A stretch of 64,000 bases of DNA, from NCBI RefSeq assembly GCF_009914755.1, contig NC_060936.1; one strand, written 5' to 3'. Source of the DNA: the human T2T-CHM13v2.0 reference genome, Homo sapiens. The notes beneath the pieces were generated by a model that ran no database searches, was not told the DNA's origin, and saw only the letters and a list, made by a program, of their open reading frames with translations. Positions 6,175-55,402 of this stretch are shown one piece after another (position 1 is the stretch's first letter; each line of letters opens with the position of its first letter). The position numbers and the translations under genes were made by a program.

Positions 6175-6368
6175 GCACATGAGGCAGCATTGGAAGCCAG
6201 AGCCAGTCCAGAGATGAGTGACCGAATACAGCACTTGGAGAGAGAGATCACCAGGTACAAAGATGAATCTAGCAAGGCCCAGGCAGAAGTTGATCGACTC
6301 TTAGAAATCTTGAAGGAGGTGGAAAATGAGAAGAATGACAAAGATAAGAAGATAGCTGAGTTGGAAAG
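6175..6368 (+). CDS. ERC1: ERC1 internal coding exon (194 nt, phase 0 to phase 2): AHEAALEARASPEMSDRIQHLEREITRYKDESSKAQAEVDRLLEILKEVENEKNDKDKKIAELE
   Basis: Acceptor cttttctttgtag|GCACAT and donor GAAAG|gtaaga. The translation (ORF 6190..6372) is recognisable ELKS/CAST coiled-coil sequence and joins in frame to the exon at 53072. Confidence 0.97.
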
Positions 6369-20800: not shown

Positions 20801-20812
20801 TCTCACCTCAAG
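20801..20812 (+). CDS. ERC1: ERC1 12-nt microexon TCTCACCTCAAG (ELE-SLTS-RQVKDQ)
   Basis: Branch-like ttCTAAC at 20751-20757, a ~40-nt pyrimidine tract, tttccttcag|exon|gtcagt, symmetric phase 2. Matches the SLTS insert I recall from rodent ELKS1 and the similar SLTL in ERC2. Confidence 0.9.
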
Positions 20813-50754: not shown

Positions 50755-52670
50755 ATGTTAATGAATTGAAAGATCCAAAAGCATGAAGTTTTTCCCAAAC
50801 TGACATTGCTTCAATGTGATTGGAATCAAAATCCCAGAGGCTGCTGTTGGGTTTTTTGTTGCTGTAGTTGGTTGGTTGGTTTGGTGGAACTTGACGGGCT
50901 AGTTCTGAAATTTCTATGAGAAGCGTAAAGCGCCAAGAACAGCCAAGAGAGTTTTGAAGAAGAAAAAGGTAGGGAGCCTTGCCTTGCTAATTACTTTTTG
51001 TAAAGGTATAGTAATTAAGGTGGTATAGATCTGGCACAGAAATATACAAACATAGCCACAAAACAGGTACACATGCATATAGAAACTTTGTACACACCAG
51101 AAGTGGCAATGCATGTAAATATTCCTGGGAAAATTCATTATAAATACATGTAAAAAATGAAATATTATTATGTTATACCAAACCCCCCAAAATGGAAGTA
51201 TGTTTTTACCTCATAACATATGCAACCTCGGTTTCAGATGGATTAATGACTGCAACGTGAAAGACAAAGTTAACGTCGTTTTAGGGGAATATCTTTATGA
51301 ACTTTGATGGACAAGATTTTGTGGAAATGTCACAAAATTGTATATTATAAAGGAGAAGATTGATACATTTGAAACAATTAAAAGTTTTAGGCTGGACATG
51401 GTGACTCATGCCTGTAATCCCAACACTGGGAGGCAGAGGCCAGTGGATTGCTTGAGTCCAGGAGTTCAAGACCAGCATAGGCAACATAGTGAAACCTCAT
51501 CTCTACTACAAATTAGCTGGGTGTGGTGGCATGTGCCTGTAATTCCAGCTGTTCAGGAGGCTGAGGTGGGAGAATCACCTGAGCCTGGGGGGTCAAGGCT
51601 GCAGTGAGCGGAGATTGTGCCACTGCACACTAGCCTTGGCGACTGAGTGAGATCCCATCTCGGAAGAAAAATAAAATTGAATTCTATCGATGAAAAGATG
51701 TAAAGAAATCATAGACTAGAAGAAAATACTTACATAACATATAACGGATAAAGTATTATTATCTATAATGTATAAAGAATACCTATAAGTCATTAAGAAA
51801 AAGATATGTTAATTTAAAAAGTGGAGAAAGACACAAATAGCTATTTCACAGAAGTGGAAACAGGAATGGCCAAATACTGTATGATAAGATATTCAGCCTA
51901 GGTGGTTAGAAACATGCATTGTAAAACTATAATGAGGTACTATTTTTTTTCTACCCTATTGGAAACATTTAGAAAGTCAGTACCATGTATTAATGGATGT
52001 GGAGAGGTATAATGGCCAACAGTTGTGCACAGCTAGCAAGAGTATAAATTAATATAGCTTCTTGGAAAATAAAATAAAATAAGGTGTACCTACTGTATTT
52101 CCTAGCAATTCAGTTCCTAGGCCTATACCTTAGAGATATTCCTGCCCAGGTATATCAGAGTGCACCTAGCAGCATTATTTAAAATGGCAAGAAGATGGAA
52201 ACAATGCAATTGTCATCTTCTGGGGAGTAGATTAAAGTAATTGCCATATATTATTTCATACCTCAGTGAAAGTGGAGAAGATTAAAAGATACATTACACT
52301 CTGAATGGTCTAAGTCTCGAAACCTATTGAAAGGGAATAATATTGAATATCATTCTGTACTAAAAAGAAAAATGAATAATTATTTATCTTTATAAAGCTC
52401 AAAAACATGTAAACTATAAATGAACAGTTCATATATATATATGTAGCAAAACAATAATAAAAGCAAAGGGATTTTAAACATAAATTTTGAGATATAGGTT
52501 GTTCTTATTAATGGAGGATAGACCAATAGTAGAGAGAGACACAATAGGGAGCTTCAGAAGTAAATATGATGTTCCATTTCTTAAGCTAGGTTTATGGATT
52601 TTTATGTCATTATTTTCATATACATCTACATTATATACAGTGTATTGAATGTTTGAAATATTTAATAATG
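50755..52670 (+). mobile_element. Old L1M (ORF2 3' part and 3'UTR) relic
   Basis: gaacagccaa...ttgaagaagaa, atagtaattaag, tttcacagaag, cctagcaattc. Confidence 0.7.
51390..51675 (+). mobile_element. AluJ
   Basis: Dimer. Confidence 0.92.
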
Positions 52671-53071
52671 GTAAAATTAGAGTTGTTTTACAAAGCTTTC
52701 TTTTTCTATCAGCCATTCTAATATTTCAGTGCGTCGATGTCAAAAATACTGCTTCCGTATTTCCAAAATCTCTGACTTGGTTTCTTTTTAGTCATTTCAA
52801 ATGATCCCGTGCCTTTCTTTTGTTTTATGATTTCATTGTTCTTCGTAGAATACATGCTGAAATACATGTTCTTTATGGGAAAACTTATTTTTGTAAACGA
52901 ATGTGCTACCATTGAGAGGAACGAATTTGGAATTGTTGAAAAATTTCGCAGCATGTATTTATTCGTTGGTTTTCAGCCATTCCTTATTGTCACTGGTGTA
53001 AGTCTCTAGATAAACATATTTGTTTCTATACATACATATGCAAAGCTTGATTTTTCTCCTTCTGTCATTAG

Positions 53072-53207
53072 GCAAGTGAAAGACCAGAATAAGAAGGTAG
53101 CAAATCTGAAGCACAAGGAACAGGTGGAAAAAAAGAAGAGTGCACAAATGTTAGAGGAGGCGCGACGACGGGAGGACAATCTCAACGACAGCTCTCAGCA
53201 GCTACAG
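53072..53207 (+). CDS. ERC1: ERC1 internal coding exon (136 nt, phase 2 to phase 0): (R)QVKDQNKKVANLKHKEQVEKKKSAQMLEEARRREDNLNDSSQQLQ
   Basis: Acceptor ctccttctgtcattag|GCAAG and donor CTACAG|gttaga. Open frame continuous with the 6175 exon; recognisable ELKS sequence. Confidence 0.97.
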
Positions 53208-53336
53208 GTTAGAACACAAGGAGAATCTGAAAGGATCGGGTGAAGACATTTGATCCGTAATCGCATGTTGTTTTTCTCTTCATCTTTATCCTCCTCTTTT
53301 TTCTCTTTCTAACCCTGCTTGCTGCCTTCCTCTCAG

Positions 53337-53460
53337 ACCAACTGTTTAGCAATGAAGGAATGGCTTTAAGTAGAAAATGCAAGTTTTATTCCACAGCTTT
53401 ATGAGGACACCTCAGCATAGGAGAAAGTTCATCTTGCTTCAAGTTGATCACACTTAATTG
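53337..53460 (+). other. ERC1: Candidate poison (PTC-containing) cassette exon of ERC1, 124 nt, encoding TNCLAMKEWL-stop
   Basis: Acceptor ttctaaccctgcttgctgccttcctctcag| with branch point and ~89-nt AG-free zone; donor TTG|gtaagt; in-frame TAA at 53367-53369. Confidence 0.5.
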
Positions 53461-53799
53461 GTAAGTTCAATGACAGTTTAATGAGTGGGTTATATTAGGC
53501 TTCAGGGTTGTCAGTATACCTCTTTGCCAGTTCCATTCATTAAAATGGATTGCTAATCTTGGTTTGTGTCTTTCTTCCTTTTTTCTATTCTTCCTTTCTC
53601 TTTTCCTTCTACCTCTCTAACCTCCCTCTATCTTTCCTTCCTTTCCTCTTTTTAAATATTCAGTTTAGTAAGAATATTTTACAGTCATACAGAATGTGAC
53701 ATATAAACTGTATTTTTTCACTTCAGTGGAGTGATAATTGATGCCTAAACCTAATTATTCACAGATTAATTAAACCAGGCTCAACAACAGCAGTAGCAG

Positions 53800-54030
53800 C
53801 TACCATATTATAAGTGCCAGTTAGGTCCTCAGTATTTGAAACTAGGCTCTGGTCATTCATTTTGTTCTAACCTTCACAGTAATCCAAGTGGAGCAGGTGG
53901 TATTGTATACATTTTGCACCGGGGGAAATAGATTCAGAGACATTGTGTTACTTACGTAAATGCACACAGCTTCTAAATGGCTCAGCCATGATTTTAACTG
54001 GGACTTCCTGAATCTGTAGACTGTCCTCTT
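53800..54030 (-). mobile_element. MIR
   Basis: agctaccat...gtgccag...cacacagct. Confidence 0.6.
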
Positions 54031-55402
54031 TGTCTTGATCATAATGCTTCAGAATGAAGGTGTAGATTATAGGGAAGAATACCATAAATGTGCTGGAGTC
54101 TCTGAAAGCCATGCTAAGACTAAGCCACTGCCAGATTGTTTTTCTCTAGTTAACAATTTCTAATTGGGTCTGATACTGTGTATATGCCGCAATTACAATC
54201 TTTACTGGAGAGATTTGGAGGGGTTACTATGTAGAAGCCATTCTGAGGCTTTACAACAAATTCTTTTAACATATGAAGAAGACTCTACTTTTTACTTCTT
54301 TTTCTCATTCCTCTTTTATGTAACTTTTACTGATTATGTTTATAGAAAAAGTATAAATTTCCTCAAATGCACCAAATTTTGCAAAAAGCAGCATGCCCGT
54401 TTTTCCTCATCCTTGCCAATAACAGTTAATATTGGCAGTTTTCTCATCTTTCTGTTCTTCCTCCTTTTTTTTTTTTTTAACAAAATACAAATCTGATGAG
54501 TGGTAAATATTTCATTCTGTGTTAATTTATATTTCTCTGATTACCAATGACATTGTTTTTTCAAGTCTTGAATTTTCTTTTGCTTGTTAATGTAATTTAA
54601 ATCTCTCTTCCATTGTTAGGTTTTCCTCCCATGGATTTTTTGCTTAGTTTATCCACATTTTGAGAGTATATATTTACACATAAATACTTTTAAGTTGTTC
54701 TGTGCTTTCATATTTTTGCCTTTACTTTTTAATTCATTTTGTGGTATTTGTGTGGTGAGGATATTTTTTCTTTATTGCTAACAACTTCACAAGAATGTTT
54801 ATAGGGAATTATTTCATTGCTCACAAACTTGAATTGATGTCTTTATATTTCATGAAATTAATGATGAGTCTGTTTCTAGGATTTCAGTTTAACCTCCCTT
54901 CTTGAACTATGGCCACATTGTTGTTTAATTCTAGAAAGTATTTATTTTATGATAAGGCAAGCCTCTCTTTATGTTAGCACTTTAACTGTTTCATTTGTCT
55001 TTCTTACCCTGCTCATCATTTAATGTTTTCTATTAGCAGTCTCTCTCTATAAACCAAAGATACTCTTCTAATCTTCTCTCAGTTGTTATAACACCAAAAG
55101 TGCTTTCATATGTAATCTCTTATTTCCTTTTTATATAAACTAAAAGATAAATAAGATAGATTATATTATTTATATTTTACCTATAGGGAAAACTAATTTA
55201 GAGTGGATGACTGGCTTCCCCAAGGTGTCTAAGTAAATGATAGATACCAAAGTTATGAAAAAGATAGCTGATGGCCATGTGCAAATTACACAGAGATGTA
55301 ATTCATTCAAATACCGTGAAAAGAGCACTGGACTACAAGTTAGGATACTTAGGATCTGATCTCAGTTCTTTTACTAACTACTCAGTTACTTAAGTATATT
55401 TC

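What the first reader, a model, noticed from the sequence alone, without database searches (positions are those of the whole stretch)
53240..53470. Candidate poison exon 129 nt downstream of the coding exon
Seen: GCATG (53263), an AG-free stretch 53246-53334, a long CU tract, branch motif TTCTAAC (53307-53313), three TGC motifs just before the acceptor, CAG|53337, and a consensus donor TTG|GTAAGT at 53460/53461. Inclusion adds TNCLAMKEWL then TAA, 91 nt upstream of the next junction. Established: this satisfies the 50-55-nt NMD rule; UGC near the 3' splice site is the SRRM3/4 signature, CU tracts bind PTBP1 and YGCY binds MBNL. Inference: an AS-NMD switch controlling ELKS dosage, or a truncated isoform lacking the C-terminal Rab6/RIM-binding region. 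With the 87-nt cassette and the microexon, this suggests a compact splicing control module around one coiled-coil segment.
Basis: partly seen in the sequence, partly recalled or inferred. Interest (0 to 1): 0.78.

Follow-up and report, generated by a model that had tools for sequence, protein, structure and literature searches.

The report
Unused look-alike exon in ERC1 intron
Just after a real ERC1 coding exon lies a 124-base stretch with textbook splice signals that would cut the protein short if spliced in, but no annotation or published catalogue I could check shows it being used, so it is most likely a silent look-alike exon.

Summary
The candidate is 124 nt (53337-53460), 129 nt downstream of ERC1 exon 53072-53207. 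It has an 89-nt AG-free pyrimidine tract, CTAAC at -24, three TGC, a CAG acceptor and a TTG|GTAAGT donor. Inclusion reads TNCLAMKEWL then TAA, 91 nt before its donor.

I found no evidence that it is spliced.
- The hub's table of 54 RefSeq transcripts has no exon there.
- A published catalogue of NMD-inducing events (liver, kidney, CNS, eye) lists four ERC1 events, none here.
- Five literature searches turned up only a different ERC1 poison exon, "exon 18".
- The homologous 62-kb ERC2 intron has nothing similar.
- The exon body has intron-like composition.

By a simple splice-site matrix, six equally good acceptor-donor pairs lie on this strand of the window, against about five expected. The fuller architecture, including two of the strand's five long CU tracts flanking it, is unique in the window, but I set those criteria after seeing it.

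Best reading: a well-formed pseudo/cryptic exon, probably held silent. A regulated dosage switch is not shown. RNA-seq and vertebrate conservation could not be tested here.

The parts
53072..53207 (+). Real ERC1 coding exon, 136 nt, encoding QVKDQNKK...SSQQLQ. It ends in phase 0 and matches Cast (PF10174) model positions 608-658 of 766.
   Evidence: Hub table
53208..53213 (+). Weak donor of the real exon (GTTAGA; T at +3, A at +6).
   Evidence: Matrix rank 103 of 3658 GT sites.
53263..53267 (+). GCATG, a Rbfox-type core (role recalled), 56 nt after the real exon.
   Evidence: The motif occurs 56 times on this strand of the window.
53246..53334 (+). AG-free zone of 89 nt.
53268..53335 (+). Upstream CU-rich pyrimidine tract (about 88% pyrimidine), with 4 TCTT, 3 TTCT, 3 TCTC and 3 YGCY.
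   Evidence: one of 5 such tracts on the + strand
53307..53313 (+). Branch-point-like TTCTAAC. The CTAAC core puts the branch A about 24 nt before the exon.
53316..53325 (+). Three TGC motifs 13-20 nt before the acceptor AG.
   Evidence: Three or more TGC in the 25 nt before a YAG at 9 of 2075 sites.
53334..53336 (+). CAG acceptor.
   Evidence: Matrix rank 26 of 4084 AG sites.
53337..53460 (+). Candidate 124-nt pseudo/cryptic exon. GC 0.37, stops in all three frames, three TAG.
53367..53369 (+). In-frame TAA after TNCLAMKEWL, 91 nt before the donor.
53461..53466 (+). GTAAGT donor, preceded by TTG.
   Evidence: Matrix rank 47 of 3658 GT sites. One of 3 G|GTAAGT on this strand.
53553..53661 (+). 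Second, downstream CU-rich low-complexity tract, starting 93 nt after the donor. It contains a 131-nt AG-free zone (53531-53661).
   Evidence: It has low-complexity look-alikes elsewhere in the genome.

Best explanation
This is a well-formed pseudoexon (cryptic exon) at the very start of the 26-kb ERC1 intron that follows exon 53072-53207. It has a complete set of splice signals but is not part of any ERC1 mRNA that I could find.

Inferred mechanism: the spliceosome normally ignores it. Its body lacks exon-like composition and carries UAG-type silencer-like words. Its acceptor lies inside a long CU tract, and a second CU tract sits downstream. That is the arrangement expected for repression by PTBP1/PTBP2-type pyrimidine-tract binding proteins.

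When it is occasionally included, or if repression is lifted, the mRNA gains TNCLAMKEWL-stop and should be removed by NMD. It is therefore a latent poison exon by sequence, not a demonstrated dosage switch.

Shown: the signals, the frame, the stop, and its absence from the annotation and catalogues I could check. Inferred: repression by PTB-type proteins, noise-level use and NMD.
For: Signals and reading frame are confirmed.

Absence of use:
- The hub table of 54 RefSeq transcripts lists only exons 6175-6368, 20801-20812 and 53072-53207 in the window.
- The Lim et al. 2020 catalogue (supplementary file 5) has 4 ERC1 rows: 1027423-1027539 ES_NMD, 1263034-1263165 ES_NMD, and 991488-1027747 as both A3_NMD and A5_NMD. 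None lies near the candidate's hg38 place, about chr12:1,237,034-1,237,157. That place is derived from the hg38 coordinates of the 136-nt exon. The catalogue used 78 liver, kidney, CNS and eye samples, at least 3 junction read pairs and at least 3% PSI (passages read).
- No row carries these coordinates in the supplements of PMC12714141 or PMC8346284.

Sequence context:
- Exon body GC is 0.37, equal to the window mean of 0.373, against 0.46 and 0.48 for the two real exons. Purine content is 0.52 against 0.68 and 0.71. All three frames are closed.
- Equally good splice-site pairs are common: 6 on the + strand against 4.98 expected.
- The homologous ERC2 intron has no counterpart. Best blastn E over 62 kb is 0.66, while the coding-exon control scores 2.5e-18. 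The first 700 nt were also read by eye.
- CU tracts flank it on both sides, 2 of the 5 on the strand.
Against: Its architecture is better than that of the other five matrix-level pairs in the window. It has an AG-free zone of 89 nt against 23-29 nt, a CTAAC branch motif at -24 against none, and a perfect GTAAGT donor.

It shares the long AG-free zone and pyrimidine-rich upstream region with the validated neural microexon of the same gene (AG-free zone 131 nt). That is the look of regulated exons.

A strong acceptor 129 nt after a weak donor, about 26 kb ahead of the real acceptor, should be hard to ignore without active repression.

The Lim catalogue labels NMD junctions only from GENCODE v28 NMD transcripts or RefSeq NR records. 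An unannotated exon, or one below 3% PSI, would be missed.

No RNA-seq, GENCODE or vertebrate alignment could be consulted.
Confidence: 0.65

Rival explanations
1. It is a genuine, regulated AS-NMD (poison) cassette exon. PTBP1 would repress it in most cells. It would be included when PTB levels fall or SRRM3/4 rise (neurons), or in another tissue, lowering ELKS output.
For: The signal set is complete and the architecture unusually good. Three TGC lie 13-20 nt before the AG, a feature seen at only 9 of 2075 YAG sites. CU tracts lie on both sides. A review reports that PTB represses the neuron-specific ERC1b exon of this gene, and PTBP2-knockout brain shows altered splicing of an (unnamed) Erc1 exon also found among HeLa PTBP1 CLIP targets (passages read). 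The gene also carries a validated neural microexon in the preceding intron.
Against: It is not in the 54 RefSeq transcripts (hub table). It is not among the 4 ERC1 NMD events found in CNS, eye, liver and kidney. The primate neuronal-differentiation study reports only the C-terminal 'exon 18' PTC exon for ERC1. ERC2 has no counterpart. The exon body looks like intron. Pairs of this matrix quality occur at the chance rate.
Confidence: 0.1
2. The CU tract and GCATG are intronic regulatory sequence serving the real upstream exon, which has a weak donor. They could be binding sites for U/C-rich-tract or Rbfox-type factors that help or tune use of GTTAGA. On this reading the AG and GTAAGT nearby are incidental.
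For: The real exon's donor is poor: CAG|GTTAGA, rank 103 of 3658 GT sites. The tract begins 60 nt after it and GCATG lies 56 nt after it. The pyrimidine-rich maximum downstream of this exon is 0.88, the highest of the three real exons in the window. The ERC2 counterpart exon has a strong donor, CAG|GTAAGC, and no such tract.
Against: No binding or splicing data are available. GCATG is common, 56 copies on the strand. This reading does not account for the branch motif, the acceptor, the perfect donor 124 nt later or the second CU tract. It is compatible with the best explanation rather than exclusive of it.
Confidence: 0.15
3. It makes a stable, C-terminally truncated ELKS protein. The product would end in TNCLAMKEWL and lack the last coiled-coil and the C-terminal partner sites. 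This could arise by escape from NMD, or as a composite terminal exon using the ATTAAA at 53539. It might be the already described short ELKS-gamma isoform.
For: The stop follows Cast model position 658 of 766, so the C-terminal quarter would be lost. That includes the PDZ-binding end that binds RIM in B isoforms (review passage). ATTAAA lies 78 nt after the donor. A review names five human splice forms including ELKS-gamma (passage read).
Against: No protein or transcript with this tail appeared in any source reached. A full-text search for the tail peptide and for old ERC1 RefSeq accessions found one paper, matching only NM_178037 in a pig-muscle study. The length I recall for ELKS-gamma, 720 residues, is from memory and unverified. 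It does not fit a protein running through model position 658 plus an N-terminal region that precedes the model, which would be roughly 800 residues or more. The original isoform paper (Nakata 2002) is not held.
Confidence: 0.05

Closest known systems
Intronic pseudoexons ('false exons' with good splice sites that are never spliced; concept recalled from Sun and Chasin 2000)
   Same: It has consensus-grade acceptor, branch motif and donor at exon-like spacing inside a long intron. Its composition is intron-like, it is in no annotated transcript, and similar pairs occur at about the chance rate.
   Different: Its signals are better than those of the other pseudoexon-grade pairs in the window. 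It also sits unusually close, 129 nt, to a real exon with a weak donor.
PTBP1/PTBP2-repressed nonconserved cryptic exons (Ling et al. 2016, Cell Rep 17:104; seen only as a citation, paper not held)
   Same: CU-rich tracts lie upstream and downstream. A stop follows on inclusion. There is no paralogue counterpart.
   Different: No knock-down or CLIP data could be consulted. Whether it is derepressed without PTBP1/2 is unknown.
The published ERC1 'poison exon' (exon 18 of ENST00000355446.9; junctionCounts paper PMC11310779, passages read)
   Same: It is in the same gene, and is a cassette exon that brings in a premature stop.
   Different: It is a different exon near the C-terminus. That one gives the ERC1b-type end, shortens the protein by about 30 residues, rises during neuronal differentiation in four primates and is annotated. 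The unit here is about 26 kb before the next exon, in the middle of the coiled-coil region, and is unannotated.
Recursive-splicing exons of long vertebrate introns (recalled: Sibley et al. 2015)
   Same: A cryptic exon with a strong acceptor and strong donor near the start of a long intron, which would act as a poison exon if kept.
   Different: The defining AG|GT junction that rebuilds a donor is missing. The exon starts ACCAAC.

Membership tests
Poison (AS-NMD) cassette exon | Usable 3' and 5' splice signals at exon-like spacing | tested here: met
   CAG acceptor, 88% pyrimidine tract, CTAAC at -24, G|GTAAGT donor, 124 nt
Poison (AS-NMD) cassette exon | In-frame stop more than 50-55 nt before a downstream exon junction | tested here: met
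   TAA at 53367-53369, 91 nt before the donor at 53460. The next exon lies at window 79339-79470.
Poison (AS-NMD) cassette exon | Found spliced into transcripts (annotation or junction reads) | tested here: not met
   Not in the 54 RefSeq transcripts (hub table). Not among the 4 ERC1 rows of the Lim 2020 catalogue. No rows in two other supplements. Raw RNA-seq and GENCODE were not available, so this is absence in what could be seen.
Poison (AS-NMD) cassette exon | Inclusion isoform rises when NMD is blocked | not testable with these tools
Poison (AS-NMD) cassette exon | Conservation of the exon and its splice sites (typical of regulated poison exons) | tested here: inconclusive
   No vertebrate genomes are held. 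The only proxy is the ERC2 paralogue intron (62 kb), which shows no similarity: best E 0.66 against 2.5e-18 for the exon control.
PTBP1/2-repressed cryptic exon | CU-rich tracts next to the exon | tested here: met
   Tracts at 53268-53335 and 53553-53661, 2 of the 5 on the + strand and 0 on the - strand
PTBP1/2-repressed cryptic exon | Inclusion appears on PTBP1/2 depletion; PTB CLIP signal | not testable with these tools
   Ling 2016 is not held. The held PTBP2 paper supplement has no Erc1 row.
SRRM3/4-dependent neural exon | UGC motifs just upstream of the acceptor | tested here: met
   TGC at -20, -16 and -13. Three or more TGC at 9 of 2075 YAG sites. That this motif marks the family is recalled, not tested.
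SRRM3/4-dependent neural exon | Very short exon (microexon range) with neural inclusion | tested here: not met
   The exon is 124 nt. Neural inclusion is not testable.
Recursive-splicing exon | Acceptor AG directly followed by GT so that a donor is rebuilt | tested here: not met
   CAG|ACCAAC
ELKS-gamma isoform exon | Gives the published short isoform | tested here: inconclusive
   Only the name is seen in print. The source paper is not held. The recalled length of 720 aa does not fit a stop after Cast position 658.

The most novel reading that the evidence does not exclude
The unit is a PTB-gated, cell-type-specific poison exon that tunes ELKS dosage. It would be kept silent by the two flanking CU tracts in most tissues and released where PTBP1/2 are low or SRRM3/4 are high. 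It would act together with the weak donor of exon 53072-53207 and the neural microexon in the preceding intron. It would have been missed by annotation because the product is degraded.
Probability: 0.08. Interest if true: 0.45.

Novelty: new member of a known kind. Interest (0 to 1): 0.17.

Why it matters
If it were a used, regulated poison exon, it would give a handle on ELKS/ERC1 dosage: a second unproductive-splicing point beside the known C-terminal one, and a possible target for splice-switching oligonucleotides. As it stands it is an ordinary example of a common thing, an intronic look-alike exon. Its main practical value is for variant interpretation. Intronic variants that weaken the flanking CU tracts or add enhancers here could activate a frame-breaking exon in a gene discussed in 12p-deletion and language-impairment papers (seen only as titles in the listing).

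Tried and rejected
- Repeat origin. A whole-genome search with 53240-53470 found only itself. With 53208-54400, only the CT-rich stretch 53557-53653 found look-alikes. The search also found only itself for 53820-54060, which by eye looks to me like an old interspersed repeat. Its sensitivity to ancient repeats is therefore doubtful. Tandem Repeats Finder found nothing in 52000-55000.
- Structured RNA. The fold of 53200-53480 has z = -0.76, and 49 of 200 shuffles fold as well. Rfam gave one sub-threshold hit elsewhere: snoR110, 28.2 bits against a gathering score of 44, at 52670-52771.
- Recursive splice site: rejected, because no GT follows the AG.
- Paralogue conservation: none.
- Literature, from listings plus the passages named:
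  - ELKS + gamma + isoform + testis: nothing relevant.
  - ELKS-gamma spellings: one review.
  - ERC1 + poison exon: 3 papers. Two were read for ERC1 passages. The third is the preprint of the first and was seen as a listing only.
  - ERC1 + cryptic exon: 9 papers. Two were read for ERC1 passages and are irrelevant.
  - Tail peptide and old RefSeq accessions: one irrelevant paper.
  - ERC1 + nonsense-mediated + alternative splicing + exon inclusion: 7 papers, three read for passages.
  - ERC1 + microexon: two papers read for passages.
  - ERC1 + NMD + exon: 41 papers, one more read.
  - None mentions an exon at this place.
- Papers not held: Wang 2002, Ling 2016 and Nakata 2002.
- Supplements without ERC1 rows: the junctionCounts paper and the PTBP2 paper. 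bioRxiv supplements are closed.
- I did not run protein-database searches. A tail of 10 residues is too short to search, and the spliced product would be a joined sequence.

Full report
**What is there**

The window is human chr12, inside ERC1 (hub table). The real coding exon 53072-53207 is 136 nt, encodes QVKDQNKKVANLKHKEQVEKKKSAQMLEEARRREDNLNDSSQQLQ and ends on a codon boundary. Its donor is poor: CAG|GTTAGA.

Downstream of it lie, in order:
- a GCATG at 53263
- an 89-nt stretch without AG (53246-53334), most of it a CU-rich tract (53268-53335, about 88% pyrimidine)
- TTCTAAC at 53307-53313, whose CTAAC core puts a branch A about 24 nt before the exon
- three TGC at 53316, 53320 and 53323
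- a CAG acceptor, so the exon starts at 53337
- a 124-nt body
- the donor TTG|GTAAGT, with the exon ending at 53460

Read in the frame of the upstream exon, the body gives TNCLAMKEWL then TAA (53367-53369), 91 nt before the donor.

**Gene context**

A six-frame search of the whole assembly with the Cast family model PF10174 lays out the ERC1 and ERC2 exons. Exon 53072-53207 covers model positions 608-658 of 766.

The next exon in the gene is a 132-nt exon (DSLRKKDD...AEKQ) at window 79339-79470. It has a TAG acceptor and a CAG|GTCTGC donor. It is followed by the exon at about window 106155, model positions 656-710. The candidate therefore sits at the first 1% of a 26,131-nt intron.

The preceding intron holds the 12-nt microexon 20801-20812 (TCTCACCTCAAG). 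Published RT-PCR primers span its two junctions. A beta-cell study lists it as a regulated event, with hg38 coordinates.

**Is it more than chance?**

- By a position weight matrix for donors and acceptors (frequencies recalled by me, so approximate), the acceptor ranks 26th of 4084 AG sites and the donor 47th of 3658 GT sites on the + strand.
- Six pairs 40-300 nt apart reach both scores, where 4.98 are expected if sites were independent. On the - strand there are 0 pairs, against 1.22 expected.
- At the level of the weakest real exon in the window there are 176 such pairs on the + strand.
- AG-free gaps of 87 nt or more occur 22 times on + and 19 times on -. GCATG occurs 56 times on +.
- So splice-site scores alone place this unit among ordinary intronic look-alikes.

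Its fuller architecture does stand out.
- Among the six pairs it alone has a long AG-free zone (89 nt against 23-29 nt), a CTRAY branch motif and a perfect GTAAGT donor.
- Under strict criteria it is the only pair on either strand, with about 0.12 expected. I set those criteria after seeing it.
- Three or more TGC before a YAG occurs at 9 of 2075 sites.
- Only five long pyrimidine tracts exist on the + strand and none on the - strand. Two of them flank this unit: 53268-53335 and 53553-53661.
- The validated microexon shares the long AG-free zone (131 nt) and the pyrimidine-rich upstream region.

**Evidence on use**

- The hub table of 54 RefSeq transcripts shows no exon here.
- From the hg38 coordinates of the 136-nt exon in a supplement (1236768-1236904) the candidate lies at about hg38 chr12:1,237,034-1,237,157. 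I checked the hg19 offset against a circRNA end.
- The catalogue of NMD-inducing splicing events of Lim et al. 2020 lists four ERC1 rows, none here and none of the exon-inclusion type.
- By the passages I read, that catalogue took NMD junctions from GENCODE v28 NMD transcripts or RefSeq NR records. It required at least 3 read pairs and at least 3% PSI in 78 liver, kidney, CNS and eye samples.
- This shows the exon is not an annotated, appreciably used NMD exon in those tissues. It does not exclude an unannotated or rarer one.
- No row with these coordinates is in the supplements of two further splicing studies.
- The only 'ERC1 poison exon' in print that my searches found is exon 18 of ENST00000355446.9, near the C-terminus, which is a different exon.
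- A review reports PTB repression of the neuron-specific ERC1b exon, and a PTBP2-knockout study names an unspecified Erc1 exon among altered events that are also HeLa PTBP1 CLIP targets.

**Other properties**

- The exon body has GC 0.37, equal to the window mean, against 0.46 and 0.48 for the real exons. It has lower purine content, three TAG and stops in all three frames.
- The stretch is single-copy by the genome search. That search seems insensitive to old repeats.
- There is no significant RNA structure and no Rfam family above threshold.
- The homologous ERC2 exon (73% identical protein) has a strong donor and no CU tract or similar unit in the next 700 nt.
- The whole 62-kb ERC2 intron gives no blastn match better than E = 0.66, while the coding exon control gives 2.5e-18.

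**Reading**

The best-supported explanation is a pseudo/cryptic exon: complete signals, no sign of use.

A good acceptor 129 nt after a weak donor appears long before the true acceptor 26 kb away. Some active silencing is therefore likely. The two flanking CU tracts make PTB-type repression the obvious candidate, but this is inference and no binding data were seen. If included, the transcript would carry a stop that fits the NMD rule.

I put it at roughly one in ten. The idea that it is the historical ELKS-gamma isoform could not be checked, because the source paper is not held. It does not fit the length I recall for that isoform.

**Limits**

No RNA-seq, GENCODE, CLIP data or vertebrate alignments were available, and these are the decisive data. 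The weight matrix is recalled. The strict criteria are post hoc. The hg38 place assumes no indel over 253 nt. Supplements of bioRxiv preprints, including the primate differentiation preprint, are closed.

Noticed in passing
window 53208-53213: The constitutive 136-nt exon has an unusually weak donor (CAG|GTTAGA, T at +3), while its ERC2 counterpart has CAG|GTAAGC. A perfect GTAAGT lies 253 nt downstream. If that were used as an alternative donor, or the 129-nt stretch were retained, the frame reads VRTQGESERIG then TGA.
   Followed up: partly
window 20801-20812: The 12-nt microexon TCTCACCTCAAG has a 131-nt AG-free zone and an 82% pyrimidine upstream region, but no TGC in the 40 nt before it. 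Published primers span its junctions (PMC10250204). A beta-cell study lists higher inclusion in A1CF-knockout cells (dPSI 0.124; PMC12714141, supplementary file 6).
   Followed up: partly
window 79339-79470 (outside the window; locus L011 1040-1171): The next ERC1 exon is 132 nt (44 codons, DSLRKKDD...AEKQ) and has no counterpart in the Cast model, which runs on from position 658 to 656-710 in the following exon. The Lim 2020 catalogue lists skipping of an exon at hg38 1263034-1263165, which maps here by offset, as an NMD-labelled event, although 132 is a multiple of three.
   Followed up: partly
window 53397-53460: An internal acceptor-like site (TTTTATTCCACAG|) would give a 64-nt version of the candidate exon. 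It also stops in frame (LYEDTSA then TAG).
   Followed up: no
window 53539-53544 and 53769-53774: Two ATTAAA hexamers lie shortly after the candidate donor. With the strong donor just upstream, this is the layout of a suppressed intronic polyadenylation site. No 3'-end data were available.
   Followed up: no
window 53553-53661: A CT-rich low-complexity tract has 15 weak look-alikes (74-84% identity) on nine chromosomes. These are the only multi-copy matches in 53208-54400.
   Followed up: yes
window, whole: The sense strand is T-rich (T 0.345 against A 0.282). It carries far more strong acceptor-like sites than the antisense strand (26 against 6 at the candidate's score) and all five long pyrimidine tracts.
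   Followed up: partly
window 52670-52771: A sub-threshold Rfam match to a plant H/ACA snoRNA family (snoR110; 28.2 bits against a gathering score of 44; E 0.055). It is most likely chance.
   Followed up: no
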